From a virus (Duplodnaviria; Caudoviricetes), in IMG/VR virus record IMGVR_UViG_3300037067_001795, positions 9,772 through 73,771 of that record: a stretch of DNA of 64,000 bases, one strand, 5' to 3'. The position numbers and the translations under genes are program-made. Below, one piece after another: positions 42,870 to 54,246 of the stretch. Below the pieces are notes generated by a model. The model searched no databases. It worked only from the letters and a program-made list of their open reading frames with translations, and was not told the origin of the DNA. Within the stretch, counting starts at the first letter, position 1; every line of letters begins with the position of its first letter.

Positions 42870-44042
42870 CTACGAGGTCGTGGCGTGCACGATGCCCGCA
42901 CGACCGCTGTAGTCAGCACGCAACTGAGGCACCATGATCGCCATGACCTTGAAGTTCAGTTGCATTCCGCCACGGGTTTCCCACTGGACCGTGGTGATGT
43001 CCATGCCATTGACGGCACGGGCAACGTCCGAGGTCATCTGGACCAGCAGCAGCGTGAAGTCGTCAGTGAGGAAGTCCAAGCGGCGGACGTCCTGGATACC
43101 CTCGATCTTGCGCAACCGTTCGCGCAGCGTCTGGGTTGGCGCAGCCATGCCCGTCGTGGCCAACGCGAAGTAGTCGTTGTCCAGATAGGTGTCCCAGTCG
43201 TCGGAGTGGTAGAGCATGTATGGACCATAGAAGTGGTCGTCGTACAGCAACTGACGCATCTCCAGAACGTCCTGCACAGTGCTCGACGGATTGCTGCCCG
43301 TCGGCGTGGTCAAGTCCGTCTTCTCGTTGCGCTGCGGGAAGTTGGTGTACCCGTACACCGTGGGAATCTCATAGTCAGCGTAGTTGGCAGCCTTACCGAA
43401 GCTGATGCCAGTCTCAGCTCCGATGAGGGTCTTCTCAACCATCTCAGCGACACGGCGACCGGCAGCCTCAGCCATGGTCAGGTCCAGGGGCGTGCCGCTA
43501 TTGCGAGACACCGCAAGATTGCGCTGGCTAAACCAGAACGAGCTGTGCGTGATCGGCAGAGGCAGACCACGGTTCTTAAACAGTGGACTGTCGGTGCGTC
43601 CCTCGGTGAGACCGTCCATGTCCACGATGGCCTCGCCAGGATCACTCATGGCTTCACTTTCCAGCACGGTCTTGGCCATGCCGTTGAAGCCACCGAAGCT
43701 CGACGCAGCCGCAAGATCAGTCCACGCACGCAGACGCTGACGGGCTTCCTTCAGAATCTGGCGATCCATCTGGATCCACTCGTCCTTGCGCAGGCTGGTG
43801 GCATTCCACACGGGCGTGCCCATACCGTTGGACGCCAACTGGCTGATTAGTGCCTTCTTGTACTCAGGCACGTACACACCAGTCTTGTCCTTGACCTTGC
43901 GTCCCGTATTCACGGTAACGCAACGCTGACCACGCTCGTCGAAGTAGGGGCGCATCATGCCGGGATCGAACCGGCAACCAGCGAGGGCACCAGCCACGTC
44001 TCCGTAGCCCTGCCCGTTTTGCACGAAGTCTTGCACGAACAT
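42870..44042 (-). CDS. Major capsid protein (HK97 fold, Linocin/encapsulin-like)
   Basis: ATSLRKDEW..MD, LPLPITHSSF, YGYTNFP, DDHFYGPY, MVPQLRAD. Confidence 0.88.
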   Translation of the reverse strand: MFVQDFVQNGQGYGDVAGALAGCRFDPGMMRPYFDERGQRCVTVNTGRKVKDKTGVYVPEYKKALISQLASNGMGTPVWNATSLRKDEWIQMDRQILKEARQRLRAWTDLAAASSFGGFNGMAKTVLESEAMSDPGEAIVDMDGLTEGRTDSPLFKNRGLPLPITHSSFWFSQRNLAVSRNSGTPLDLTMAEAAGRRVAEMVEKTLIGAETGISFGKAANYADYEIPTVYGYTNFPQRNEKTDLTTPTGSNPSSTVQDVLEMRQLLYDDHFYGPYMLYHSDDWDTYLDNDYFALATTGMAAPTQTLRERLRKIEGIQDVRRLDFLTDDFTLLLVQMTSDVARAVNGMDITTVQWETRGGMQLNFKVMAIMVPQLRADYSGRAGIVHATTS

Positions 44043-44662: not shown

Positions 44663-45262
44663 CTACGCTTCGGGCTTGGCCCAGTTCACCGTCGGCAACG
44701 GCAGATAGTCGTTGTCATCGTCCTTCGTGCCCACGTTGGCCGTAGGCGGTACCGACGCCCCAAAGTAGCTCGGCACGTTCTGGCTCTCGTTCACAAGCGG
44801 CTTGGCCAACGCAGCCAAGTTCTGGAGCGTGTCCAACGGCATGGCGTTGAGCTGTTCCTTCGTGAACTTGTTTTGGGCGTTGCCAGTGATCACACCGATG
44901 GCCACGTCCTTGCGCTCCTGCTTGATGCTGCGCGCAAGGGCGATGTCTTCCATCTGCTCTCGGGTCAGGACGTTGCCCGTGGGTTTCTCTTCGTCCACAA
45001 CTTCTTCCTCCTCTTCGTCCGCTGCCGCCATCTTCTTCTTGATGAATTCCGGCATAGCGTTCACGGTGATCTTGGAATCCATGCCGAACCCTTCACGGGC
45101 GGCATTTACGACAGCGTCGGCTTGGAGCTGCTTCTCCAATGCGGTATCCAGCTTGTTGAGCTGGTTGTCCGTCAGGTCCATCAACTCATCGCGATCAGCC
45201 TCATCCCAGCAGCAGCTATTCTCGATGAGGTTATCCACGATATCTTCGCGGCTTTTGGTCAT
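44663..45262 (-). CDS. Nested in-frame scaffold protein (internal start)
   Basis: AAGGAGGT Shine-Dalgarno just upstream of ATG 45262 (MTKSREDIV...). Confidence 0.6.
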   Translation of the reverse strand: MTKSREDIVDNLIENSCCWDEADRDELMDLTDNQLNKLDTALEKQLQADAVVNAAREGFGMDSKITVNAMPEFIKKKMAAADEEEEEVVDEEKPTGNVLTREQMEDIALARSIKQERKDVAIGVITGNAQNKFTKEQLNAMPLDTLQNLAALAKPLVNESQNVPSYFGASVPPTANVGTKDDDNDYLPLPTVNWAKPEA

Positions 45263-46927
45263 ATCTGACCTCCTTCTACGTTGGTTACGAGTTTGGCCAG
45301 ACTGGCCTGGATTACCCTTTGACACACGGATGGTTGTTTCACCATAGCCGAAGTCTACAAGCGTAGCTGTAAGGTCGCCCTTAGACATCGCTTCCTGCAC
45401 GTTCTTGCCACCGGAGATGCTGGGTATGTTCTGACTGTGAGTGTGTTTCCACCCGTCATTGATCATCTTGGTTCGTACCTTGCCGATATCTTCCGAGGCT
45501 AGAACAGACTCCTTCCCATGTCCGGCACGCACATTAGCATCAGCCACGACCATCTTCTTACTGCCTTGATAGGGATTCTGTGTCGTAGCAATCCCAGCAC
45601 TGCTTAGCACCTCTGCAGTTTTCTTACTGGGTAGATCCTTGCGTGCTTTGTGCATCGCAATAGAGATAGGCACTTCGTCAGTACCAGACACGCGTTGAAC
45701 GGCATCACCCTTGAGTGTTGTAGACTTTGCTTTCTTAGGGGCAACTGCTTTCGCAGCATCAGCGGCCTCACGACCCTTCCTACTGGCTGCCCCAGACTCT
45801 TTCCACAGCTTGCTAGCCTCTTCTTTCTCACCCTTGTCAGACATCTTGCGAGCCTTGGCTGCCAGCTTGGATGCCTCTGCCTGATACTTCTTGGCATCAG
45901 CTCTGAGCGATTCATAGTCAGAGCCACCACCCGCTTCGCCCTTGTACGACGCCTTCTCGGTCTCAGCGGCAGCACGATCTTCGCTAGCCTTAGACTTAGC
46001 GTCTAGTTCAAGTGCCTTCCGCTTGGCGATTGTTTCACGCAGTGGGCCTTCCTCAATAGCGGCAGCTTTGCCGTACTCTTCCTGCTCTTCAAGATCTGCC
46101 ATTTCCTTGGTGAGACTGGCCTCTTTCTTCTTCAGTGAGTCAATCTCACCAGCACCGCTCTTGGCAGCACCATGGGCCTTGGACGCACCCTTGCCGCCAG
46201 TAGCTCCACCACCTCCACCTCCGCCCGCACCGAACTGGCCTTTCGCATCACGGGGTTGATTGGGGTTGTAGGCGTTCTCAACACCTAGCAGCACAGCGAG
46301 GCTCTGGAGCACAGACAATTTCTCTTCAAGCGGCACGGTAGTATCTCCTGTGTGGTTGACCAGCACACCACAGCCGTCCCTGAGGGAACAAGCACCGATC
46401 TGATCAGGCAGGATTGCCAAGTGATCCGGTCTGTAGTTGCGTGCCACGTGCGTATAGAGCTTGCCGTCCGGCGCAGTAGAGCCGTTCTCTGCTGGCTCGT
46501 TGTCCGTGTACAGCCCCGTGCTCAGCTCCTGCGGCTCGTTCCGCAGCAATGCGTCGTACACTCGCTGGTCTACGGTACGTGTGCGCTCTGCGTCAAACCA
46601 GCCCTCGGCGGTCAGCTTGCCGTTATAGGCAGGCCGGCGCACGTAGCCGATCCCTTGCTTGTCCAGCACTCCGGGCGACTGGGCAGACACGTGCGATCCG
46701 TCTACCGATTGCGGATGGTAGACCACGATCGGCATCTCGTTCCATGCCATGAAGTCCCGCTCAATCTCGTCAGCGGGATAGTACAGAGGCCCCTGTGATC
46801 CATTCAGGACACCGGGAACGATCAGCGTCAGAGGGGCAACAAGATACTCGCGTCCGCCACGGAACTGGCGTCGCGTCTTACCTGTCACGTTCGCTGTAAT
46901 AGAATGGAGCATGCTTTTCCTCGGCAA
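44663..46927 (-). CDS. DUF2213 prohead protease/scaffold with inserted payload
   Basis: ELSTG, ARNYRPDHLAILPDQIGACS...GCG; C-terminal scaffold. Confidence 0.88.
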   Translation of the reverse strand: MPRKSMLHSITANVTGKTRRQFRGGREYLVAPLTLIVPGVLNGSQGPLYYPADEIERDFMAWNEMPIVVYHPQSVDGSHVSAQSPGVLDKQGIGYVRRPAYNGKLTAEGWFDAERTRTVDQRVYDALLRNEPQELSTGLYTDNEPAENGSTAPDGKLYTHVARNYRPDHLAILPDQIGACSLRDGCGVLVNHTGDTTVPLEEKLSVLQSLAVLLGVENAYNPNQPRDAKGQFGAGGGGGGGATGGKGASKAHGAAKSGAGEIDSLKKKEASLTKEMADLEEQEEYGKAAAIEEGPLRETIAKRKALELDAKSKASEDRAAAETEKASYKGEAGGGSDYESLRADAKKYQAEASKLAAKARKMSDKGEKEEASKLWKESGAASRKGREAADAAKAVAPKKAKSTTLKGDAVQRVSGTDEVPISIAMHKARKDLPSKKTAEVLSSAGIATTQNPYQGSKKMVVADANVRAGHGKESVLASEDIGKVRTKMINDGWKHTHSQNIPSISGGKNVQEAMSKGDLTATLVDFGYGETTIRVSKGNPGQSGQTRNQRRRRSDMTKSREDIVDNLIENSCCWDEADRDELMDLTDNQLNKLDTALEKQLQADAVVNAAREGFGMDSKITVNAMPEFIKKKMAAADEEEEEVVDEEKPTGNVLTREQMEDIALARSIKQERKDVAIGVITGNAQNKFTKEQLNAMPLDTLQNLAALAKPLVNESQNVPSYFGASVPPTANVGTKDDDNDYLPLPTVNWAKPEA

Positions 46928-47394: not shown

Positions 47395-50300
47395 TCATAG
47401 GAGCCACTCCTTAGACTTAGATGAGACTTGGTCTACCCACGGCGGAAAGATACCCTGCTTGTACCGTGGATCTGTGGTCAAGGCAAAGATCTCACAGAAT
47501 GCTTCCTCAGCATTCTTGCCAGCGTAGCTAGTAACATCTGTCCCAACGGTGCTTGGAACCATGCTTCTCCACTCACGCTGTTGTTCGTTTGACAGCTTAC
47601 CAAATAGCTTGTGACCGTACTCATGTCGTAGGATAGCAGCATAGCCACCAACACCACCAGCCGTAGGTTGACCTGGGACTAGATCAGACCCGCTCTCGCC
47701 ACGCCAGAACGGACTGTCGTAGACGTGAGTTGCAGCCCGTTCCTCTGCCGCACATGAACGACCCTTCTCTTGCCTCCTGAAGATAATAGGAACGTCACCA
47801 TGCTTCTCAGCAAACTCCTGATATGCAGGGTTCGCCCTATTGGCATTCGCAGCATTCTGTATCTCCAAGTGCAGCTCTGGGTCAAGGTCCTTGAAGGCAG
47901 GCTTGTCGCCCTCGTTCCCCTTCTTAGACCGTAGCACCTTCTTCCAGTTATCCACGATCTCTTCATGGGACGGCCTGTTACTTGCGTCCAACCGTCCTTG
48001 CTTGATCATGTGGTCAGCAAATCCCTCAGCCTCACCAGCAATCAGCTCAGCAGCCTCGTTCACATTAGTCACAACGACTTGACCACCGTGCGTCTTCGCC
48101 CACTGCTCGGCTTCCTTCAGTGTGCTAAACTTCGGCGGAGCGTCTGGTATACTCTCGTGACCCACACCACCTCCCCCACTGCTCCATTGGCCTTTGTAGT
48201 CACGTGGTTGATTGGGGTTATAGTTAACCACGCTGACCGGTCGCTTCTTGGCGATACGCTTGTCAGGGCCTACCCACTTGGTTCGCTTACGTTGCTCCGC
48301 CAGCGTACGCTTCTTAGGCTTCTCAGCCTTCAAGCTCTCGGTGATAGCAGCTTGGATCTCCTCCTTGCGGCGCACCTGTTCCTTCTGCGGCTCGCCCACG
48401 TTAGCGGGTAGGTGTGCGCATCTACAGTTGCTGACTACTAGTCCACCACTATAATACAGGCTAGTTGCTGTTGTGGCATCAAAAGCAAGTCCTTCATACT
48501 CGGTAAAGGAAACACTATGAATCCGCTCCCACTTGAAGAGGTTAGGCAACGCTACTTGGCTGGAGAAAGTCTGTGTTCTATGCAGCAACGATTCGGGGTC
48601 AATCGTAGTGCAATTAAACTCCGTCTCGAGAGAATGGGGATCGTCCTCAGAAGATACACCCCTGCTGAGAAGGCCAAATTTGCTTACGAAGCTAGAAGGG
48701 GCCAGACTGACACTATGGCCACTAAGCTGGCTAGAGCCACTACTAGATCGAAGCTCGGTCTTGGGGTAGGTTCCTGCGAAGTTGCCCTCTCGCAATTTCT
48801 CGACGCCGAAGGAATCCCATACTCCCAGCAAACCACGTGCGGGCCATATTGCCTCGACTTTACCCTGACAGAACACCCTATCGCCGTGGAGATCCGAGGA
48901 CGTGGCTACAATCCCAGAGTTGCCCGTAACTCTAAGAAGAGACTCAAATATGTTCTCGACCGTTGGAACTTGATTTACATTCAAGCCTGTGGAAGACCCA
49001 TTCTTCCGGTGGTCGTAGAGTACATAGTCGCCTTCTCTAAGCTGTGCCGCAGGAACCATTCCTCTAGGGGTGAGTATTGGGTGATTAGGTCCGATGGTCG
49101 TCCGAGCCAACCCGCTCCGCAGGGTAAGTACAATAGCTGGGCCGCAATACCAAGCCCGGACCAGCTCCTCGCATTCGCCATAAGAAGCAAACGATGATCC
49201 AGCAAACACAGCATTAGGATGCCTCGGAATCATGCCCCTCGCTTCTTTTATTGTGAGCACTACACCGTCCATGGCTTGACATAGTCTACACACCCTACCG
49301 TCGCCAGCCGTATCCCACTCCACCATGACGCCTACTTCGGTCACGCCTAGTCGCTCCATAGCGTCTAGCTGACCTTCTGCATGGCTGCGAATTACTTCTG
49401 TCCTCGCAATAGTCGCAGCCCTATTGGAGCCGAAGCCTAGCTCGTCCTTGAGCCGTCGTGCTAGAACGTGTGGATTGTCGCCACGTGCGAAGCCTTCAGT
49501 CAACTCGCGACTGACTACTACGGCCATCGCTTCAGTCACGCCCTTCAGATCAGTGAACACGCGACCCGCCATGAGTTGAACCTTCTCAATGCTCATGGGC
49601 CTGCCGAAACTGCTCCGTAGGAACTCCTCCTTCGTGCCGTTGTACCATCGCATATCCTTCTGCACAGCCGGTACTCTCACGTCGTCAAAGGCACGACCCT
49701 GTCCCTTCTGGTAGGCCTCCTCCACAAACTTGCGCCAGTACGCCTCACCCAGTCCGTCGTCCTTGCCAGCCAGCACCTCGTCCTTCAGCACCCCCTGCAA
49801 CCACTTCAAGAACGCCGCTATCTGCTGCGGCCTACTCTGAAAGACCCACCGTGCGTTCGTCGCTAGTTGGTTGTGAGTAGCCTTCCACTTCTTACGCTTC
49901 GCTTCCCAGATCTTTCTAGCGTCTGGATTGGCTGGTGCCTTACCACTCAGCCATGTAGGATAATCCACAGACTTTGTAGGTGTGGCCTTCTTGACAACTG
50001 GGGGCTTGCTAATCCCAGGGAGGATAGATTTGCTGGGTTCTACGGTCGACGCGGTCCCAAACTTACGATCCATAAGATCTTTGACTACGGCTGACGACCT
50101 TGGTAGTTTGTCTGTGAGTGATTCTGCATGTAGGTCTGCCCCTAGATGGTACGCTGTCAGATGGGCAAACGATTCATTTCGACCTTGGCTTCTACCAGTC
50201 AAGAAATAGTTATGCTGCCCATACTTCTCTGCGGCACTGATAGATCGCATATCCAGCTTGTACGCTTCAGCAAACGTATCAGAGCTAGACCAATCATTTT

Positions 50301-51771
50301 CAACATCTAGTACGTGCCCTACTTCGTGGGCTACAGCGTAGAAGTTCCTTTCCTCATCGGTGCTTGTGGGGTCTAGCTTCTTAGCCATGTCACCCGCATG
50401 AACCTTCTCAGAGAAGTTCAGTTCCTTCTTGTCATAGTTGACAAAGGCGTTTGCCCCCTGTTTACGCATCTCTTCGTCTGAGATTGACTTAACAACCCAT
50501 CCCTTAGATTCTACAAACGCCTTGATGGATGATGGTAACTTGTCATAAGCTTCTAAGGTAGTATCAGCAGCTCCACCACCAGAGCCCCATCTACCACGAG
50601 CATCCCGTGGTTGATTAGGATTGTATGCGTTCGCAGTCACGCCCTTGTAATCGCCCACTCTCCACTCTGTCTCGCCCGGATTGTAATAGAGGTCCTTTAC
50701 GTCGGCGGTCCTGATGAAGATAGTGCTGGCGGGCTTCGCGTCCTTCAGATGGTCTGGCCAGCCCGTACCCATGAACAGCGGAAACTGCTTGCCTTCCAGC
50801 GACACAGCCTGAAGCACAGCGAAGTCGTTGTCGCCGTGTTGCAGCATCAGGTCGTTCACACGTGCCTCAGACACACCGTGCGTCACGCCAGCACTAACCA
50901 GCTCGTCTCTAGTAAGTTCGCCTCTAGCTGCCTTCCGTGCAATGTTGAGGCCGTCGCGGTACTTCTCAGCGTTGTCTTTCGTGGTAAACGAGATCAGGTT
51001 GGAAGCACTGCCGCCCAGCGTCTGCTGACCCAGCTCGTCGCTGCTCTTCAGGCCCTCTGTCTTGATCTTGTCTGCTGCGAACGTGGCATGATAGAGCTGG
51101 TCTGGTGGCTCTACGTAGCCTGGATGCCCCGGTCGCAAGCCGCTCGGCGTAGCCAGTCCTTCAATCCGTTGCAGCTCCGTAGACTGTCGCTCACGGTCCT
51201 TCCAGTACTCCTCTCGCTTGCGTTCCGCCTCTGCCTTGGTTGCCTCGCTGGACTGCCGCAGCCGTACGTCCTTGATATCCAGTCCCATCTCCTCATGCTC
51301 TTTGAGGGCCAGCCTAGCATCCTCAACGGACATGGTCGCTACGATGTCGTCGTTGTCGTCCAGGAACTCCACATCGCCGGTCATGTCACTCGGCAGCTTG
51401 TCGGCTGTGAACACACCACCAGCTCCACCACCGCCACTACTCCACTTGCCCTCTGCATCACGTGGTTGCGAAGGGTTGTAGGCGTTCAACGTACTCTCAC
51501 GCACCAGACCAAACGCGTCCTCTACCAGCAACAGGTCTTGGATCTGCTTAGCCACTCGTGCAAACCGCCTACGTAACTCCACCTCAAACAAACGCCGCAA
51601 CGTAGCAGTCCTACTTGGATCACTACGTAGTGGGTTCTTGGCCTTGCGTGGATTGCCTGCATTAGAAGTGAGAGGGCTGCCAGGGTGTGACCCTGTGCGT
51701 TCCTCGGGTAAGGTACGACCCCTGCTCCCCGAGGAGACAACAACCCTCTTGCGTGGCTTAGCGATCACCAT
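47395..51771 (-). CDS. Polyvalent MuF (SPP1 gp7) head morphogenesis protein with intein, ART-like and two HEXXH domains
   Basis: DPSRTATL; ATIARTE...W.TAGDGRVC..C; HPN|intein|CRC; LYHAT; HEVGH; HEYGH. Confidence 0.9.
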   Translation of the reverse strand: MVIAKPRKRVVVSSGSRGRTLPEERTGSHPGSPLTSNAGNPRKAKNPLRSDPSRTATLRRLFEVELRRRFARVAKQIQDLLLVEDAFGLVRESTLNAYNPSQPRDAEGKWSSGGGGAGGVFTADKLPSDMTGDVEFLDDNDDIVATMSVEDARLALKEHEEMGLDIKDVRLRQSSEATKAEAERKREEYWKDRERQSTELQRIEGLATPSGLRPGHPGYVEPPDQLYHATFAADKIKTEGLKSSDELGQQTLGGSASNLISFTTKDNAEKYRDGLNIARKAARGELTRDELVSAGVTHGVSEARVNDLMLQHGDNDFAVLQAVSLEGKQFPLFMGTGWPDHLKDAKPASTIFIRTADVKDLYYNPGETEWRVGDYKGVTANAYNPNQPRDARGRWGSGGGAADTTLEAYDKLPSSIKAFVESKGWVVKSISDEEMRKQGANAFVNYDKKELNFSEKVHAGDMAKKLDPTSTDEERNFYAVAHEVGHVLDVENDWSSSDTFAEAYKLDMRSISAAEKYGQHNYFLTGRSQGRNESFAHLTAYHLGADLHAESLTDKLPRSSAVVKDLMDRKFGTASTVEPSKSILPGISKPPVVKKATPTKSVDYPTWLSGKAPANPDARKIWEAKRKKWKATHNQLATNARWVFQSRPQQIAAFLKWLQGVLKDEVLAGKDDGLGEAYWRKFVEEAYQKGQGRAFDDVRVPAVQKDMRWYNGTKEEFLRSSFGRPMSIEKVQLMAGRVFTDLKGVTEAMAVVVSRELTEGFARGDNPHVLARRLKDELGFGSNRAATIARTEVIRSHAEGQLDAMERLGVTEVGVMVEWDTAGDGRVCRLCQAMDGVVLTIKEARGMIPRHPNAVFAGSSFASYGECEELVRAWYCGPAIVLTLRSGLARTTIGPNHPILTPRGMVPAAQLREGDYVLYDHRKNGSSTGLNVNQVPTVENIFESLLRVTGNSGIVATSSDLHGDRVFCQGKVEAIWPARGLLGVWDSFGVEKLREGNFAGTYPKTELRSSSGSSQLSGHSVSLAPSSFVSKFGLLSRGVSSEDDPHSLETEFNCTTIDPESLLHRTQTFSSQVALPNLFKWERIHSVSFTEYEGLAFDATTATSLYYSGGLVVSNCRCAHLPANVGEPQKEQVRRKEEIQAAITESLKAEKPKKRTLAEQRKRTKWVGPDKRIAKKRPVSVVNYNPNQPRDYKGQWSSGGGGVGHESIPDAPPKFSTLKEAEQWAKTHGGQVVVTNVNEAAELIAGEAEGFADHMIKQGRLDASNRPSHEEIVDNWKKVLRSKKGNEGDKPAFKDLDPELHLEIQNAANANRANPAYQEFAEKHGDVPIIFRRQEKGRSCAAEERAATHVYDSPFWRGESGSDLVPGQPTAGGVGGYAAILRHEYGHKLFGKLSNEQQREWRSMVPSTVGTDVTSYAGKNAEEAFCEIFALTTDPRYKQGIFPPWVDQVSSKSKEWLL
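48427..49212 (-). mobile_element. Intein (262 aa, Ala1, ends Ser-Asn, +1 Cys)
   Basis: Interrupts the MuF motif HPN/CRC; WYCG, GPNHPILT (block B), AFD (block F), VVSN. Confidence 0.85.
48517..49197 (+). CDS. Antisense HTH plus DUF559/Vsr-like endonuclease nested in the intein
   Basis: RYLAGESLCSMQQRFGVNRSAIKLRL (HTH); CEVALSQFL...QQTTCGPYCLDF...IAVEIRG (PD-(D/E)xK-like). Confidence 0.75.
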   Translation: MNPLPLEEVRQRYLAGESLCSMQQRFGVNRSAIKLRLERMGIVLRRYTPAEKAKFAYEARRGQTDTMATKLARATTRSKLGLGVGSCEVALSQFLDAEGIPYSQQTTCGPYCLDFTLTEHPIAVEIRGRGYNPRVARNSKKRLKYVLDRWNLIYIQACGRPILPVVVEYIVAFSKLCRRNHSSRGEYWVIRSDGRPSQPAPQGKYNSWAAIPSPDQLLAFAIRSKR

Positions 51772-52077: not shown

Positions 52078-54246
52078 TCAGTTTTTCTGATTGGGGTTCC
52101 AGTTGTCGGTGGGTTTCAGTTTGTCTGTCACGTCCACTATCTTTAGGCCACCACCATCCATAAGCTGATAACCCCAGGCCCTAGAAGCACTGGACAGCGG
52201 AACAGATCCATGAGATTCAGCGTACAGATCCTTTGACCCCCAATAGAACTTTGGATCCACTAAGGCTGACTCGTGCACTTCTACGAGCAACCCTGCAGAA
52301 CCCTTAGCTGCTCCTCCATAGATCGGGATGGGCTCCTTAGAGAAGTTTGTAGTACCACCGTGATCAGCCGAACGACCAGGACCTAGCTCACCTGTTGTTA
52401 GAGCCTTATCAAAGTCTTCCTTTGTAACAAACCGATAGACATAGTCTTCTCGCGGTACGACGGTATCGCTGAATCGCTTTGTTACAGGAGCATTGTCGAC
52501 TTGCTGCTGGATTTCTGCTTTCACGCTTGCTCCTCCGCCACCGCCCCCACTCCCAAACTTACCATCGGCGTCACGTGGTTGGTTTGGATTGTAGTTCTCA
52601 ACCTTCTTCTTGCTTGGGAACGCAGCCACCTCGTCACCCTCAGTCGTGACAACCTTCTCGCCCTCACGCATCTTGATAGTGCCGGGTGCTTCCTCGGGCA
52701 CTGGAGGCGCAGGCACGTGACCGGGTACGATCTCGTCCTCGGTGTCTGGGTTGGTCTTCTCGAGCTGGTCCATGGCACCTTCCAGCACTTCGTCAACCTC
52801 GTTCTGCGGCATCTCCATGATCCGTGTGAGGAAGTCGTTGGGAGCAATGAGGGCTTCCACATTGCCGCCGATGTACTTGGCCATGGCGTCCACGCGCTGG
52901 ACTGCCACCTGTGCCTTCTCCAGCTCACTCAGTGCTTCCAGGTCTGGCCATACTGCGGAGTAACCCTGAGGCTCAGGCAGCACACCTACCATGATGCAAC
53001 GGTCCACGAACGGTATGATCATGCGAGGCGTGAGGTACTTACCCTGCCTAGCACGCATGCGATCGTTCCACGAGTCGCTATCCTGAGAAGAAGCCAGCTC
53101 GCCGCGCTCGGATCCTTCGAAGATACGGCGTGGAACAGCCAGTTCGATGCAGATAGCACCGATCTGAACGTCGATCTGCGGCGTAGGATCCACAACCTGC
53201 GGAGCTAGGCTCTTCGCACTCATGCCCATCAGAGCCATGTATCGCTGCAACCCGTTCATGTACTGCTCCATCTGCTCGCGCAGCGCAGCAGCATCCACGT
53301 TCACGTCGCCGCCTAGCTGCGGATGGGTCTCCAGCGACCAGCCGGGAAACGCTCCACGGAAGTACATTTCGGCACTACCACCATAGAGCTTGCGCAGGTC
53401 TAGGATCCTGTGCAATACCGGCTTCATGCGCGGCGTGCCGAAGATCTCAGAGCTGCCGCAGTTGTCGGCGATGTGAATGACTCTGGTCCAGTGCACCATC
53501 TTGGTAGCAAAGGGTAAGCCAATACCACCCTTGGTCCACTCGTTGGGGTCGTTGAACGTGATGCTGTACATGACCGGCTGACCATATCGCGGCGATGTAG
53601 GATTGGTCTCGTACTGAGCAATCTGCACCAACGACTCATCAAACGCCCTCATGAACAACAGACGACGACCCTTGGTCTTGTCCTTGTCCACGTTCAGTGT
53701 GTACACGTTACCCGTAGGCTTGGCTGGTGCCTTCACTTCCGCGGGCTGCTCTTGGCCCTTGACTGGAATGTCTACAGGCTCGGACCACTTCTCCTCGACG
53801 CCGCGGACTGGCTTGCTCAGCTCTTGGCCGTCATCCAGACCTAGCAGCAGCACACCGAAGCAGCCTATTCCACTCAGCACGTCAGCACGGCGCAGGTACT
53901 CCCAGATCGGTGAGCCTTCCTCGCCTTGGCCACGGTACCAGCTACGTCCACGTAGGCTGTTGCTGAGGTTTTCCCATGCTGTCTCAAACTCCGTGGTCGC
54001 CTCGCTGTCCTCGTCCTCGTACACCTCCGGCTCGTTCTTCCAGGACTCGTTAGGTATCACGTTGACCACGCGATTGCCGATAGGATCCTCGTCGTACAGT
54101 TCACGGTAGCCGTTTGGCTCCATGCCGCCGTCAGGGTAACCGCACTCCACCTTGAGGTCACGCCGTGGATCCAGCAGCTTCTGCAGTAGCTCAGATCGCT
54201 GCATCATTGCGTTGAACAGAATTTCGTTGTTGATCGCTTCGCTCAT
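52078..54246 (-). CDS. Portal protein (DUF1073/anti-CBASS Acb1-like portal family) with C-terminal payload
   Basis: IGNRVVNVIPNESW, HWTRVIH, GSAEMYF, GELASSQD, WPDL. Confidence 0.88.
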   Translation of the reverse strand: MSEAINNEILFNAMMQRSELLQKLLDPRRDLKVECGYPDGGMEPNGYRELYDEDPIGNRVVNVIPNESWKNEPEVYEDEDSEATTEFETAWENLSNSLRGRSWYRGQGEEGSPIWEYLRRADVLSGIGCFGVLLLGLDDGQELSKPVRGVEEKWSEPVDIPVKGQEQPAEVKAPAKPTGNVYTLNVDKDKTKGRRLLFMRAFDESLVQIAQYETNPTSPRYGQPVMYSITFNDPNEWTKGGIGLPFATKMVHWTRVIHIADNCGSSEIFGTPRMKPVLHRILDLRKLYGGSAEMYFRGAFPGWSLETHPQLGGDVNVDAAALREQMEQYMNGLQRYMALMGMSAKSLAPQVVDPTPQIDVQIGAICIELAVPRRIFEGSERGELASSQDSDSWNDRMRARQGKYLTPRMIIPFVDRCIMVGVLPEPQGYSAVWPDLEALSELEKAQVAVQRVDAMAKYIGGNVEALIAPNDFLTRIMEMPQNEVDEVLEGAMDQLEKTNPDTEDEIVPGHVPAPPVPEEAPGTIKMREGEKVVTTEGDEVAAFPSKKKVENYNPNQPRDADGKFGSGGGGGGASVKAEIQQQVDNAPVTKRFSDTVVPREDYVYRFVTKEDFDKALTTGELGPGRSADHGGTTNFSKEPIPIYGGAAKGSAGLLVEVHESALVDPKFYWGSKDLYAESHGSVPLSSASRAWGYQLMDGGGLKIVDVTDKLKPTDNWNPNQKN

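What the first reader, a model, noticed from the sequence alone, without database searches (positions are those of the whole stretch)
48427..49212. Intein whose homing endonuclease appears to be encoded on the opposite strand
Seen: the 262-codon intein frame is open on the minus strand, but its middle has no LAGLIDADG/HNH motif and is Ser-rich, like shadow translation. The plus strand carries a fully nested 226-aa ORF (48517-49197) with an N-terminal HTH and a DUF559/Vsr-type nuclease pattern (E..L..FL....I....Q...GPY.LDF.....IAVEI). About 680 nt are thus open on both strands. Known: inteins normally carry their endonuclease in-frame. Inference: an antisense, separately translated endonuclease drives homing.
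Basis: partly seen in the sequence, partly recalled or inferred. Interest (0 to 1): 0.85.

Follow-up and report, generated by a model that had tools for sequence, protein, structure and literature searches.

The report
Intein with antisense-encoded homing endonuclease
A self-splicing protein insert (intein) in a prophage head-assembly gene carries, on the opposite DNA strand and in the same codons, a conserved gene for a Vsr-type DNA-cutting enzyme that probably spreads the insert; this layout was first described in a 2025 preprint, and this is a further example with clear two-strand coding.

Summary
Window 48427-49212 (-) is a 262-codon intein. It sits exactly at the HPN|CRC motif of a 1458-aa MuF-like head morphogenesis gene, and an intein-free homologue reads HPNCRC. 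The nested plus-strand ORF 48517-49197 (226 aa) uses the same triplets read backwards.

Openness on both strands is not unusual in this window. The evidence is comparative. The antisense protein is conserved at 25-43% identity, always antisense inside inteins, in more than 100 phage and prophage loci whose third-codon-position GC runs from 0.40 to 0.80. It folds with confidence (pLDDT 88.5) into an HTH plus a Vsr/DUF559/I-Bth0305I-like nuclease (Z about 11). The sense frame folds as a Hint domain (Z 12.8).

Codon tests show three zones. HEN residues 1-108 are selected only in the antisense frame. Residues 109-146 and 170-206 are constrained in both frames; the codons RTC GCC GTG GAR are identical in 20 of 21 independently found loci. 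The last residues are selected only in the sense frame. The HEN start codon and Shine-Dalgarno lie opposite intein block F, and its stop lies opposite block A.

The architecture, an antisense Vsr-like HEN in minor-capsid inteins including the nearest relative REQ3, was reported by Gosselin et al. (bioRxiv 2025). This is therefore a new member of a known kind. Expression, cleavage and splicing remain untested.

The parts
47395..51771 (-). Host gene: MuF-like head morphogenesis / minor capsid protein, 1458 aa, with extra cargo-like domains
   Evidence: Pfam PF04233 Phage_Mu_F at residues 753-845, E 3.2e-10. PHROG head morphogenesis families. Lies between the portal gene (52078-54246) and an HK97-like capsid gene (42870-44042).
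48427..49212 (-). Intein, 262 aa. Ala1 ... Ser261-Asn262, followed by Cys+1 (codon 48424-48426). Inserted at HPN|CRC of MuF.
   Evidence: An empty-site allele reads HPNCRC. The AF2 model has a Hint fold: Mtu RecA intein 2in0, Z 12.8, rmsd 1.7, 107 residues aligned; all 60 chains scoring Z>=8 in that look-up, of which the 49 shown in its table are all inteins or Hint domains. The profile hits the sequences of solved inteins at 1.8e-10 to 4e-10.
48991..49212 (-). N-terminal splicing part of the intein (residues 1-74: block A, R.WY.G, block B GPNHPIL, GDYVLY)
   Evidence: pLDDT 90-98. The sense frame is strongly selected here, z 12-26. Codon-position entropy follows the sense frame.
48823..48975 (-). 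Sense-frame conserved extra segment of the intein (residues 80-130: VENIFESLL ... DLHGD ... KVEAI). It is dual-coded with the HEN nuclease core.
   Evidence: Sense conservation exceeds the shadow expected from the HEN frame, z 8.8-15.5. pLDDT 79-92. The FHGD/LHGD codons are fixed.
48547..48822 (-). Intein residues 131-222: open but unselected 'shadow' of the HEN N-terminal half; 21% Ser
   Evidence: Sense z about 0-2. pLDDT 39-59. Ser content.
48427..48546 (-). C-terminal splicing part of the intein (residues 223-262; blocks F/G, ending LVVSN)
   Evidence: pLDDT 83-98. Aligns with blocks F/G of relatives.
48517..49197 (+). Antisense ORF: 226-aa putative homing endonuclease (HTH + helical linker + Vsr-like nuclease). 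The stop codon TGA at 49195-49197 lies opposite intein Ser6.
   Evidence: 1287 clusters of relatives at E<=1e-3. Relatives lie antisense inside inteins in every locus examined. AF2 pLDDT 88.5, pTM 0.75.
48506..48510 (+). Shine-Dalgarno-like AAGGA, 6 nt before ATG 48517, inside the intein C-terminal region
   Evidence: Sequence read. In relatives an SD precedes the start in 43-49 of 69 loci, against a 14% background.
48517..48648 (+). HEN N-terminal helix-turn-helix (residues 1-44)
   Evidence: VIA-align matches residues 1-44 to a phage repressor and to transposase HTHs, Z 5-6.7. 37 of 76 relatives hit HTH_58 and 24 of 76 hit HTH_7.
48760..49107 (+). HEN nuclease domain (residues 82-197). Conserved E88, Y111, D114 (48856-48858), A123-V124-E125, R142.
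   Evidence: 3hrl Z 11.3 (residues 83-179), Vsr 1cw0 Z 11.3 (82-197), I-Bth0305I 3r3p Z 10.5. Profile against PDB sequences: 3hrl 3e-8, 3r3p 3e-4. Invariant columns.
48880..48891 (+). ATC GCC GTG GAG, read as I-A-V-E in the HEN and as L-H-G-D in the intein. This is the most tightly dual-coded spot.
   Evidence: RTC GCC GTG GAR in 18 of 18 loci found by protein similarity, plus L194 and L196. The one exception is L195.

Best explanation
The region is a mobile intein whose homing endonuclease is a separate gene on the antisense strand, read from the same codon triplets.

Sense (minus) strand. The MuF-like head protein is made with a 262-aa Hint-domain intein at its conserved HPN|CRC motif. Protein splicing is expected to remove the intein. 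Residue 1 is Ala, so splicing would most likely start with a direct attack by Cys+1, as in KlbA-type class 2 inteins, followed by cyclisation of Asn262.

Plus strand. An ORF lying wholly inside the intein, with its own Shine-Dalgarno and ATG, encodes a 226-aa protein: an N-terminal HTH, a helical linker and a Vsr/DUF559-type nuclease. This protein is expected to cut intein-free MuF alleles of related phages near the HPN-CRC coding sequence. Recombinational repair from the intein-bearing copy would then copy the intein and its endonuclease gene together (homing).

The ORF runs from opposite intein block F to opposite block A, so the whole expression unit travels with the intein.

Shown here: both frames are open and conserved, both have the expected folds, each shows frame-specific purifying selection, and several blocks are under dual-frame constraint.

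Inferred: antisense transcription and translation, nuclease activity and target, homing, and the splicing route.
For: Intein identity:
- Exact insertion into HPN|CRC, with an empty-site homologue.
- Hint fold, Z 12.8. The profile hits solved inteins, including the Ala1 intein KlbA, at 2e-10.

Antisense gene:
- tblastn finds the 226-aa protein antisense inside MuF genes of Pseudomonas, Gordonia, Rhodococcus, Aggregatibacter, Vibrio and Cronobacter phages (27-42% identity, 81-96% coverage for all but REQ3, which covers 62%). Edwardsiella, Klebsiella and Idiomarinaceae phages followed from the sense-frame searches and were shown to carry the antisense HEN.
- The frame is always codon-aligned and open for 209-372 codons, even where third-position GC is 0.40-0.45.
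- 1287 representative clusters at E<=1e-3. The two checked with DNA lie antisense in inteins.
- 79 of 80 IMG/VR loci found by a nucleotide pattern carry the HEN antisense to an open host frame.
- In 400 genomes of the same phylum, 5 have the full HEN, and all 5 are antisense in inteins.

Selection:
- Synonymous-resampling tests and codon-position entropy.

Fold and family:
- pLDDT 88.5. Vsr, DUF559 and I-Bth0305I at Z 10.5-11.3. Sequence profile 3e-8 and 3e-4.
- 50 of 76 relatives hit PF18741 and 26 of 76 hit DUF559.

Translation signals:
- The ATG lies opposite the block-F His, 20 residues from the intein end, with GGAGG opposite [N/D]-L-[Q/E]. This holds in about 40 of 58 pattern-found loci and 10-11 of 14 unbiased loci.
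- The stop lies opposite intein residues 2-16 in the 14 unbiased loci; in the 58 pattern-found loci the median is 6.5 and the range -3 to 32.

Mobility signs:
- Sporadic distribution.
- Different insertion sites and hosts: MuF HPN|CRC, MuF CAF|C in L136, and a terminase-like gene in L137.
- Decayed HEN frames in L015, L056 and L089 while the intein frame stays open.

Prior description of the same architecture.
Against: - There are no expression data. The only promoter-like match on the plus strand is weak and about 290 nt upstream.
- The window's HEN and its nearest relatives lack the His general base of Vsr/EDxHD enzymes. They read G.GN (GRGYN here) where other subfamilies have GGxWH, so catalysis may differ or be lost.
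- The window protein alone does not reach Pfam thresholds: PF18741 E 0.19, 12.2 bits against a cut-off of 38.2.
- The intein has Ala1, Gly in place of the block B Thr, and Ser rather than His before Asn262. Splicing competence is therefore unproven. The cultured phage REQ3 does carry the same Ala1 type.
- In this window the open antisense frame by itself is not statistically unusual.
Confidence: 0.82

Rival explanations
1. The antisense ORF is a non-coding shadow. A codon-aligned antisense frame stays open by chance in a gene poor in TTA/CTA/TCA codons, and its apparent motifs merely mirror the intein.
For: Neighbouring genes in this window have equally long antisense open runs of 201-339 codons. 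Other shadow ORFs exist, for example 50611-51576. A conserved sense protein does cast some conservation onto the codon-aligned antisense frame.
Against: - Over HEN residues 1-108 the sense frame is unconserved (z about 0-2), while the antisense frame is conserved well beyond any shadow (z 9-19).
- Third-position variability follows the antisense frame there.
- The frame stays open in AT-rich phages, where chance openness is about 1e-5 per locus.
- Confident Vsr-like fold with conserved E/D/E/R residues.
Confidence: 0.03
2. The antisense protein is real but is no longer a homing endonuclease. It could be a domesticated DNA-binding or regulatory protein, or a nickase with another role, kept inside a fixed, vertically inherited intein.
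For: - The window subgroup lacks the catalytic His of Vsr/EDxHD.
- The preprint notes that several Vsr-like-HEN inteins look vertically inherited.
- The HTH domain is the best-conserved part.
Against: - E88, D114, E125 and R142 are invariant or nearly so.
- The G.GN variant is itself conserved among the nearest relatives, which points to a working variant site.
- The element occurs at several insertion sites and host genes, and sporadically: 5 of 400 genomes.
- Decayed copies exist, as expected in a homing cycle.
Confidence: 0.1
3. The intein is splicing-dead, because of Ala1 and the non-canonical blocks. The insert then stays in MuF as a tolerated domain or only cleaves at its C-terminus, and the prophage may be defective.
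For: - Ala1, Gly for the block B Thr, and Ser261.
- No block-F Cys that would allow the class 3 route.
- The genome is a fragmented MAG, so prophage viability is unknown.
Against: - The same Ala1 type is present in the cultured phage REQ3 and in L012, L013 and L056, with Asn and Cys+1 always kept.
- The Hint fold is predicted with pLDDT above 90.
- The sense frame of the splicing blocks is under strong selection.
- KlbA-type inteins splice with Ala1 (established knowledge; profile hit to KlbA).
Confidence: 0.12

Closest known systems
Inteins with an 'anti-sense VSR-like HEN' in actinobacteriophage minor capsid proteins (Gosselin, Arsenault & Gogarten, bioRxiv 10.1101/2025.01.02.630785), including Rhodococcus phage REQ3
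   Same: - Same host protein family (MuF / minor capsid).
- Same Vsr-like endonuclease family on the antisense strand of a contiguous intein.
- REQ3 is the window's best GenBank relative (HEN 41.7% identity, intein 47-48%) and shares Ala1 and the HPN| junction.
- Their model also matched Vsr 1CW0 (Z 10.6) and 3R3P.
   Different: - The window is a prophage or phage contig in a bacterial MAG, not an actinophage isolate, and its MuF is a 1458-aa multi-domain form.
- The preprint calls REQ3 class 3. I find no Trp/Cys/Thr signature in the window intein.
[quoted passage not shown] Here the ORF overlaps blocks A, B and F, with measurable dual-frame selection.
- I also find the family in phages of Gammaproteobacteria.
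Antisense LAGLIDADG endonuclease ORFs in inteins (Synechocystis DnaX intein; Gorbalenya 1998, as cited in the preprint)
   Same: A contiguous intein whose endonuclease is a separate ORF on the complementary strand.
   Different: The nuclease family is different (LAGLIDADG rather than Vsr-like) and so is the host gene. I did not examine those sequences.
Fractured genes: split inteins with a free-standing Vsr-like HEN between the halves (Dassa et al. 2009, PMC2677866)
   Same: A Vsr-like homing endonuclease associated with an intein as a separately translated gene.
   Different: In those loci the intein and host gene are physically split and the HEN does not overlap coding sequence. Here the intein frame runs uninterrupted through the HEN gene on the other strand. 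That paper does not mention opposite-strand cases.
I-Bth0305I, prototype of the EDxHD homing endonuclease family (Taylor et al. 2011, PMC3239194; PDB 3r3p)
   Same: Two-part architecture: an N-terminal DNA-binding region and a C-terminal Vsr-fold nuclease. Structural Z 10.5 and profile E 3e-4. The Asp equivalent to D196 is conserved (D114).
   Different: - I-Bth0305I is intron-encoded and uses NUMOD motifs rather than an HTH.
- The window protein lacks the His equivalent to H213.
Methanocaldococcus jannaschii KlbA intein (class 2, Ala1; PDB 2jmz)
   Same: Ala at position 1 with Cys+1 and a terminal Asn. Shares the R..Y.G...I.T...T..HP region (profile E 2e-10).
   Different: KlbA is a mini-intein with no endonuclease. 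The shared splicing mechanism is inferred only.

Membership tests
Intein (Hint-domain protein-splicing element) | In-frame insertion at a conserved host-protein site, with intein-free homologues contiguous across that site | tested here: met
   Hardycor1 MuF reads IPVHPNCRCTFLP. The window reads IPRHPN|262 aa|CRCAHLP. The same site is used in most of about 60 related loci.
Intein (Hint-domain protein-splicing element) | Hint fold | tested here: met
   AF2 model against PDB: Mtu RecA intein Z 12.8, rmsd 1.7, 107 residues aligned. 60 chains score Z>=8, and all 49 of those shown are inteins or Hint domains.
Intein (Hint-domain protein-splicing element) | C-terminal Asn followed by a Cys/Ser/Thr +1 nucleophile; block B His | tested here: met
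   ...VVSN262|C; H44 in GPNHPIL.
Intein (Hint-domain protein-splicing element) | N-terminal Cys/Ser nucleophile (class 1) | tested here: not met
   Residue 1 is Ala. Most relatives have Cys1, but REQ3, L012, L013 and L056 share Ala1.
Intein (Hint-domain protein-splicing element) | Protein splicing activity | not testable with these tools
   Needs an expression and splicing assay.
Class 3 inteins (Trp-Cys-Thr signature) | Trp two residues after the block B His, Cys in block F, Thr before the terminal (H/S)N. Positions recalled from the literature. | tested here: not met
   The window has Ile46 after H44-P45, no Cys in block F (LAFDATTATSLYYSGG), and Val-Ser-Asn at the end. The preprint nevertheless lists REQ3 as class 3.
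Class 2 (KlbA-type) inteins | Ala1 with Cys+1 attacking the N-terminal junction directly | tested here: inconclusive
   Ala1 and Cys+1 are present, and the profile hits KlbA at 2e-10, but no better than class 1 inteins. The mechanism cannot be tested here.
Vsr-like / EDxHD homing endonucleases (Vsr, DUF559, I-Bth0305I superfamily) | Vsr-type nuclease fold | tested here: met
   3hrl Z 11.3 (rmsd 2.2, 89 aligned), 1cw0 Z 11.3 (rmsd 2.4, 108 aligned), 3r3p Z 10.5. These are also the top three Foldseek hits.
Vsr-like / EDxHD homing endonucleases (Vsr, DUF559, I-Bth0305I superfamily) | Conserved acidic catalytic residues: Asp in Y-x-L-D-F and Glu in A-V-E | tested here: met
   D114 and E125 are invariant, and E88 nearly so, in 11 and in 76 sequences. 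D114 aligns with I-Bth0305I D196.
Vsr-like / EDxHD homing endonucleases (Vsr, DUF559, I-Bth0305I superfamily) | His general base (GGxWH; H213 of I-Bth0305I) | tested here: not met
   The window reads AVEIRGRGYN. The nearest relatives share G.GN. 29 of 76 family members have a His within 3-10 residues after the (I/V/L)A(V/I/L)E motif, and those printed read GGxWH.
Vsr-like / EDxHD homing endonucleases (Vsr, DUF559, I-Bth0305I superfamily) | Pfam gathering thresholds for PF18741 and PF04480 | tested here: not met
   Window protein: PF18741 E 0.19, 12.2 bits against 38.2. By contrast, 50 of 76 relatives match PF18741 and 26 of 76 match DUF559 at E<=0.01.
Vsr-like / EDxHD homing endonucleases (Vsr, DUF559, I-Bth0305I superfamily) | Site-specific cleavage of the element-free allele | not testable with these tools
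   Needs a biochemical assay.
Antisense-HEN inteins (Gosselin et al. 2025) | A contiguous intein frame with a complete HEN ORF on the complementary strand inside the intein | tested here: met
   The HEN start lies opposite intein residue 232 and the stop opposite residue 6.

The most novel reading that the evidence does not exclude
The overlap may be an evolved entanglement rather than a passenger gene sitting in an intein loop.

- The HEN catalytic A-V-E codons are also the intein's H-G-D codons.
- The HEN C-terminal helix and strand are also Hint block B and its neighbours.
- The HEN start codon and Shine-Dalgarno are also the block-F His and [N/D]-L-[Q/E] codons.

Many mutations that would inactivate the endonuclease would then also damage an intein embedded in an essential head gene. 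This would slow the usual decay of homing endonucleases. The sense-coded extra segment (intein residues 80-125) would be a functional partner, in splicing or in DNA targeting.
Probability: 0.25. Interest if true: 0.75.

Novelty: new member of a known kind. Interest (0 to 1): 0.5.

Why it matters
Antisense, fully nested protein-coding genes with evidence of selection in both frames are rare in bacteria and phages, and routine annotation misses them. None of the GenBank records I examined annotates this ORF.

This locus and its relatives provide a large natural data set: more than 100 loci across host GC contents. In it, two folded proteins, a Hint domain and a Vsr-type nuclease, share the same codons. 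That makes it useful for several purposes:
- studying the limits of dual coding;
- understanding how free-standing endonucleases merge with inteins;
- testing whether overlap protects selfish genes from decay;
- correcting phage annotation.

The Ala1 subgroup also offers new candidates for non-canonical splicing chemistry.

Tried and rejected
- Single-sequence searches of either frame gave nothing decisive. Pfam: only E 0.15-0.19 for the ORF and nothing for the intein. PDB sequences: kinase and phage-knob noise, PI-MtuI at E 1.
- The search for related loci failed with alignment A1, which has no conserved 7-10 column stretch. With the single protein it found nothing in viral contigs.
- The word-indexed protein search gave one hit. 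The exhaustive HMMER search was needed.
- I first took the open frame as improbable, about 0.01 under a geometric model. I rejected that after seeing equally long antisense runs in neighbouring genes.
- Class 3 intein assignment was rejected (see Membership tests).
- I looked for relatives that keep the sense FHGD segment but have no HEN, to separate the two constraints. In 400 phylum genomes the full-length intein profile matched only the genomes that also have the HEN. The extra phage hits (Klebsiella, Vibrio, Idiomarinaceae) all turned out to carry the HEN. The test could therefore not be made.
- Entropy values for HEN residues 111-125 in the 91-sequence set are biased, because 80 of those loci were fetched with a nucleotide pattern covering those codons. 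Claims about those codons rest on the unbiased set only.
- The promoter and terminator scan was uninformative.
I therefore could not see how intein residues 80-125 pack against the Hint core.
Full report
1. WHAT IS THERE

The minus strand carries a 1458-aa ORF (47395-51771). Its residues 753-845 match Pfam Phage_Mu_F, and it matches several PHROG head-morphogenesis families. It lies between a portal gene (52078-54246) and an HK97-like capsid gene (42870-44042), so this is the head module of a tailed phage or prophage. The window is part of contig C6 of a 4.85-Mb, 295-contig genome.

Inside the MuF domain the sequence reads ...IPRHPN | AVFAGSS ... LVVSN | CRCAHLP.... The nearest intein-free GenBank homologue, the MuF of Halorubrum phage Hardycor1, reads ...IPVHPNCRCTFLP.... 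The 262 residues encoded by 49212-48427 are therefore an exact in-frame insertion at a conserved motif.

2. THE SENSE FRAME IS AN INTEIN

A profile of 62 homologous inserts hits the sequences of solved inteins: Pho RadA 1.8e-10, Mja KlbA 2e-10, Mtu RecA 4e-10.

The AlphaFold2 model (mean pLDDT 75) is confident over residues 1-70, 80-130 and 221-262. It is poor over residues 131-220. Compared with PDB chains it aligns to the Mtu RecA mini-intein at Z 12.8 (rmsd 1.7, 107 residues). There are 60 chains at Z>=8, and every one of those shown is an intein or Hint domain.

The intein ends in Asn with Cys+1 and has the block B His. However, it starts with Ala, has Gly where block B usually has Thr, and has Ser before the terminal Asn. 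Most relatives start with Cys. A subgroup shares Ala1: the window, the cultured phage REQ3, L012, L013 and L056. I see no class 3 Trp/Cys/Thr signature, so a KlbA-like (class 2) route is the most likely. This is inference.

3. THE ANTISENSE ORF

ORF 48517-49197 (226 aa) reads the same triplets as the intein in reverse complement. In that register, a stop codon on one strand corresponds to TTA, CTA or TCA on the other.

In this window such antisense frames are often long. Open runs reach 268 codons in the portal gene, 326 in the capsid gene and 339 in the MuF N-extein. Openness alone therefore proves nothing here.

The comparative evidence is decisive:

- tblastn with the 226-aa protein finds matches of 27-42% identity over 81-96% of its length (62% for REQ3). 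All lie on the antisense strand of MuF or minor-head genes, in phages of Pseudomonas, Gordonia, Rhodococcus, Aggregatibacter, Vibrio and Cronobacter. Edwardsiella, Klebsiella and Idiomarinaceae phages followed from sense-frame searches and carry the HEN too.
- In ten such loci the frame is open for 209-372 codons, and it is always the codon-aligned frame. This includes phages with third-position GC of 0.40-0.45, where 3-4% of codons would be antisense stops.
- An exhaustive HMMER search finds 1287 clusters at E<=1e-3. Gene callers do call these ORFs. The two looked up with DNA (L012, L013) lie antisense inside Ala1 inteins at HPN|.
- A nucleotide pattern drawn from the shared motif retrieved at least 119 IMG/VR loci. 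In 79 of the 80 fetched, the antisense frame matches the HEN profile and the sense frame is an open host gene with an intein.
- Among 400 genomes of the same phylum, five carry the full protein. In all five it lies antisense in an intein. The full-length intein profile is found in exactly those genomes.

4. WHAT THE ANTISENSE PROTEIN IS

With 76 relatives as the alignment, AlphaFold2 gives pLDDT 88.5 and pTM 0.75. Residues 1-44 form an HTH, with Z 5-6.7 to a phage repressor and to transposase HTHs.

Residues 82-197 form a Vsr-type nuclease:
- NGO0050/DUF559 (3hrl): Z 11.3
- Vsr (1cw0): Z 11.3
- I-Bth0305I (3r3p): Z 10.5

A sequence profile reaches 3hrl at 3e-8 and 3r3p at 3e-4. 50 of 76 relatives hit PF18741 and 26 of 76 hit DUF559. 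Y111, D114, E125 and R142 are invariant, and E88 nearly so.

One caveat applies. The window protein and its closest relatives read G.GN where other subfamilies have GGxWH. They therefore lack the His that acts as general base in Vsr and I-Bth0305I.

5. WHICH FRAME IS SELECTED WHERE

Because the frames are codon-aligned, one codon alignment serves both. I resampled synonymous codons in one frame, using each locus's own codon usage and forbidding stops in the other frame. I then asked whether the other frame is more conserved than that null predicts. I did this with 11 sequences and again with 18. All were found by protein similarity, not by the nucleotide pattern.

Results by HEN residue:
- 1-108: antisense frame z 9-19, sense frame z about 0-2. 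Antisense coding only; the sense translation is pure shadow. This is the Ser-rich, low-pLDDT part of the intein.
- 109-146: both frames exceed the null (antisense z 10-17, sense z 9-15).
- 147-169: mostly antisense.
- 170-206: both frames (sense z 12-26, antisense z 4-9).
- 207-215: sense only.

Nucleotide entropy by codon position tells the same story. The antisense third position is most variable up to about residue 111. The sense third position is most variable from about residue 172.

The sharpest case is the HEN motif (I/V)-A-V-E. It is encoded by RTC GCC GTG GAR in 20 of 21 independently found loci. The same bases read (F/L)-H-G-D in the intein. Every position that is synonymous in one frame but would change the other frame is fixed.

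The one exception is Idiomarinaceae phage 1N2-2. It keeps A-I-E in the HEN but reads L-Y-G-R in the intein. The sense H-G-D is therefore not indispensable, and the antisense constraint looks primary.

The HEN C-terminal helix (165-179), which belongs to the Vsr fold, and the strand 187-191 lie opposite intein residues 42-68. That stretch includes block B.

6. TRANSLATION SIGNALS ARE PART OF THE OVERLAP

In most relatives the HEN start codon is the reverse complement of the His codon in block F (G-H-V-Y-[N/D]-L-[Q/E]-T), exactly 20 residues from the intein C-terminus. The Shine-Dalgarno GGAGG is the reverse complement of the [N/D]-L-[Q/E] codons. This holds in about 40 of 58 pattern-found loci and in 10-11 of 14 unbiased loci. 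An SD is present in 43-49 of 69 loci, against a background of 14%.

The HEN stop lies opposite intein residues 2-16 in the 14 unbiased loci. In the 58 pattern-found loci the median is 6.5 and the range is -3 to 32.

In the window, AAGGA (48506-48510) precedes ATG 48517, which lies opposite His232, 30 residues from the intein end. The TGA stop lies opposite Ser6.

The endonuclease gene with its ribosome-binding site is therefore contained within the intein. A mobile unit needs exactly this.

7. MECHANISM

The best-supported reading is a homing intein with a separately translated antisense Vsr-like endonuclease, as set out under Best explanation.

Signs of mobility are:
- a patchy distribution;
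- use of other sites and host genes, namely MuF CAF|C in L136 and a terminase-like gene in L137;
- copies in which the HEN frame has decayed while the intein frame stays open: L015, L056, L089.

Expression, cleavage, homing and splicing were not and could not be tested here.

8. COMPARISON WITH WHAT IS KNOWN

Gosselin, Arsenault and Gogarten (bioRxiv 10.1101/2025.01.02.630785) surveyed actinobacteriophage inteins. They report 'anti-sense VSR-like HENs' in contiguous inteins. They note that the inteins of minor capsid proteins all have non-canonical HENs, and they name the REQ3 minor-capsid intein. Antisense LAGLIDADG ORFs in inteins have been known since 1998, as cited there. Vsr-like HENs with split inteins and in introns were described by Dassa et al. 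2009 and Taylor et al. 2011.

The finding is therefore a new member of a recently described kind, not a new kind.

What this analysis adds:
- The family extends well beyond actinophages.
- The antisense ORF overlaps the splicing blocks rather than lying between them.
- There is frame-resolved evidence of genuine dual coding.
- The start, Shine-Dalgarno and stop are placed in blocks F and A.
- The window subgroup lacks both the class 1 nucleophile and the Vsr His.

The preprint does not discuss start codons, ribosome-binding sites or dual-frame selection.

Earlier notes of this scan on the same genome had flagged the same stretch, the Ala1 intein and the MuF cargo domains.

9. VERDICT

Novelty: new member of a known kind. 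Interest is moderate (0.5). The dual-coding detail is striking and testable, but the architecture is already in the literature.

Noticed in passing
L163 (own genome, contig C166) 4147-4551: A second, partial copy of the same arrangement in the same genome, cut by the contig end. The minus strand ends ...GHVFDLQTETTLYIANSILSSN|CGCALIP. A plus-strand ORF starting at 4237 encodes an HEN N-terminal HTH (E 1.1e-18 to the HEN profile). It sits in a different head-gene context, so a second phage in this MAG probably carries the element.
   Followed up: partly
window 47395-51771 and 44663-46927 (minus strand): The MuF protein carries three copies of a NAYNP(N/S)QPRD..G.W.SGGGG cassette, and the next gene carries one more. 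MuF also has two HExxH motifs (HEVGH, HEYGH; weak Reprolysin_4 hit, E 0.022). This looks like a polyvalent MuF with cargo domains. Earlier scan notes flag the same.
   Followed up: no
L137 (G109:C290) and L136/L167 (G219:C62): The same intein + antisense HEN unit sits in a terminase-large-subunit-like gene (...AQFN|CLPGTT...THN|CLFQ) and at a different MuF site (between the Cys residues of the CxxC motif, CAF|C...HN|CWSMHG). These are apparent target-site and host-gene switches.
   Followed up: partly
L015, L056, L089 (IMG/VR loci): Here the antisense HEN frame is truncated (125-199 codons, partial profile match) while the intein frame stays open. These are candidate decaying endonucleases. 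L056 is an Ala1 mini form (221 aa), like REQ3.
   Followed up: partly
L195 (Idiomarinaceae phage 1N2-2) host CDS 1042-2778: The only relative seen without the fixed GCC GTG codons. Its HEN reads T-A-I-E and its intein reads L-Y-G-R instead of F-H-G-D. It is a natural test case for whether the sense H-G-D matters.
   Followed up: partly
window 50611-51576 (+) and 42885-43850 (+): Two 321-aa plus-strand ORFs lie antisense to the MuF N-extein and to the capsid gene. Both fall within the long codon-aligned antisense open runs of those genes and have low-complexity translations. They are probably non-coding shadows.
   Followed up: no
L012 5202-6744 (minus strand): In the metagenomic relative, the portal protein is recorded with NUDIX and ADP-ribosyltransferase Pfam hits. 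This is a portal with enzymatic extensions, next to a MuF with the same Ala1 intein.
   Followed up: no
own genome, contig C36 15561-15776: Another generic Hint-domain match (E 1e-9, profile positions 12-82) inside an 898-codon open frame. It is probably an unrelated intein in another gene.
   Followed up: no
L001-L010, L194-L196 (GenBank phage records): None of the 13 GenBank records examined annotates the antisense ORF. One (Vibrio phage 1.197.A) notes an intein C-terminal splicing region. Several label the intein-bearing MuF gene 'hypothetical protein'.
   Followed up: yes
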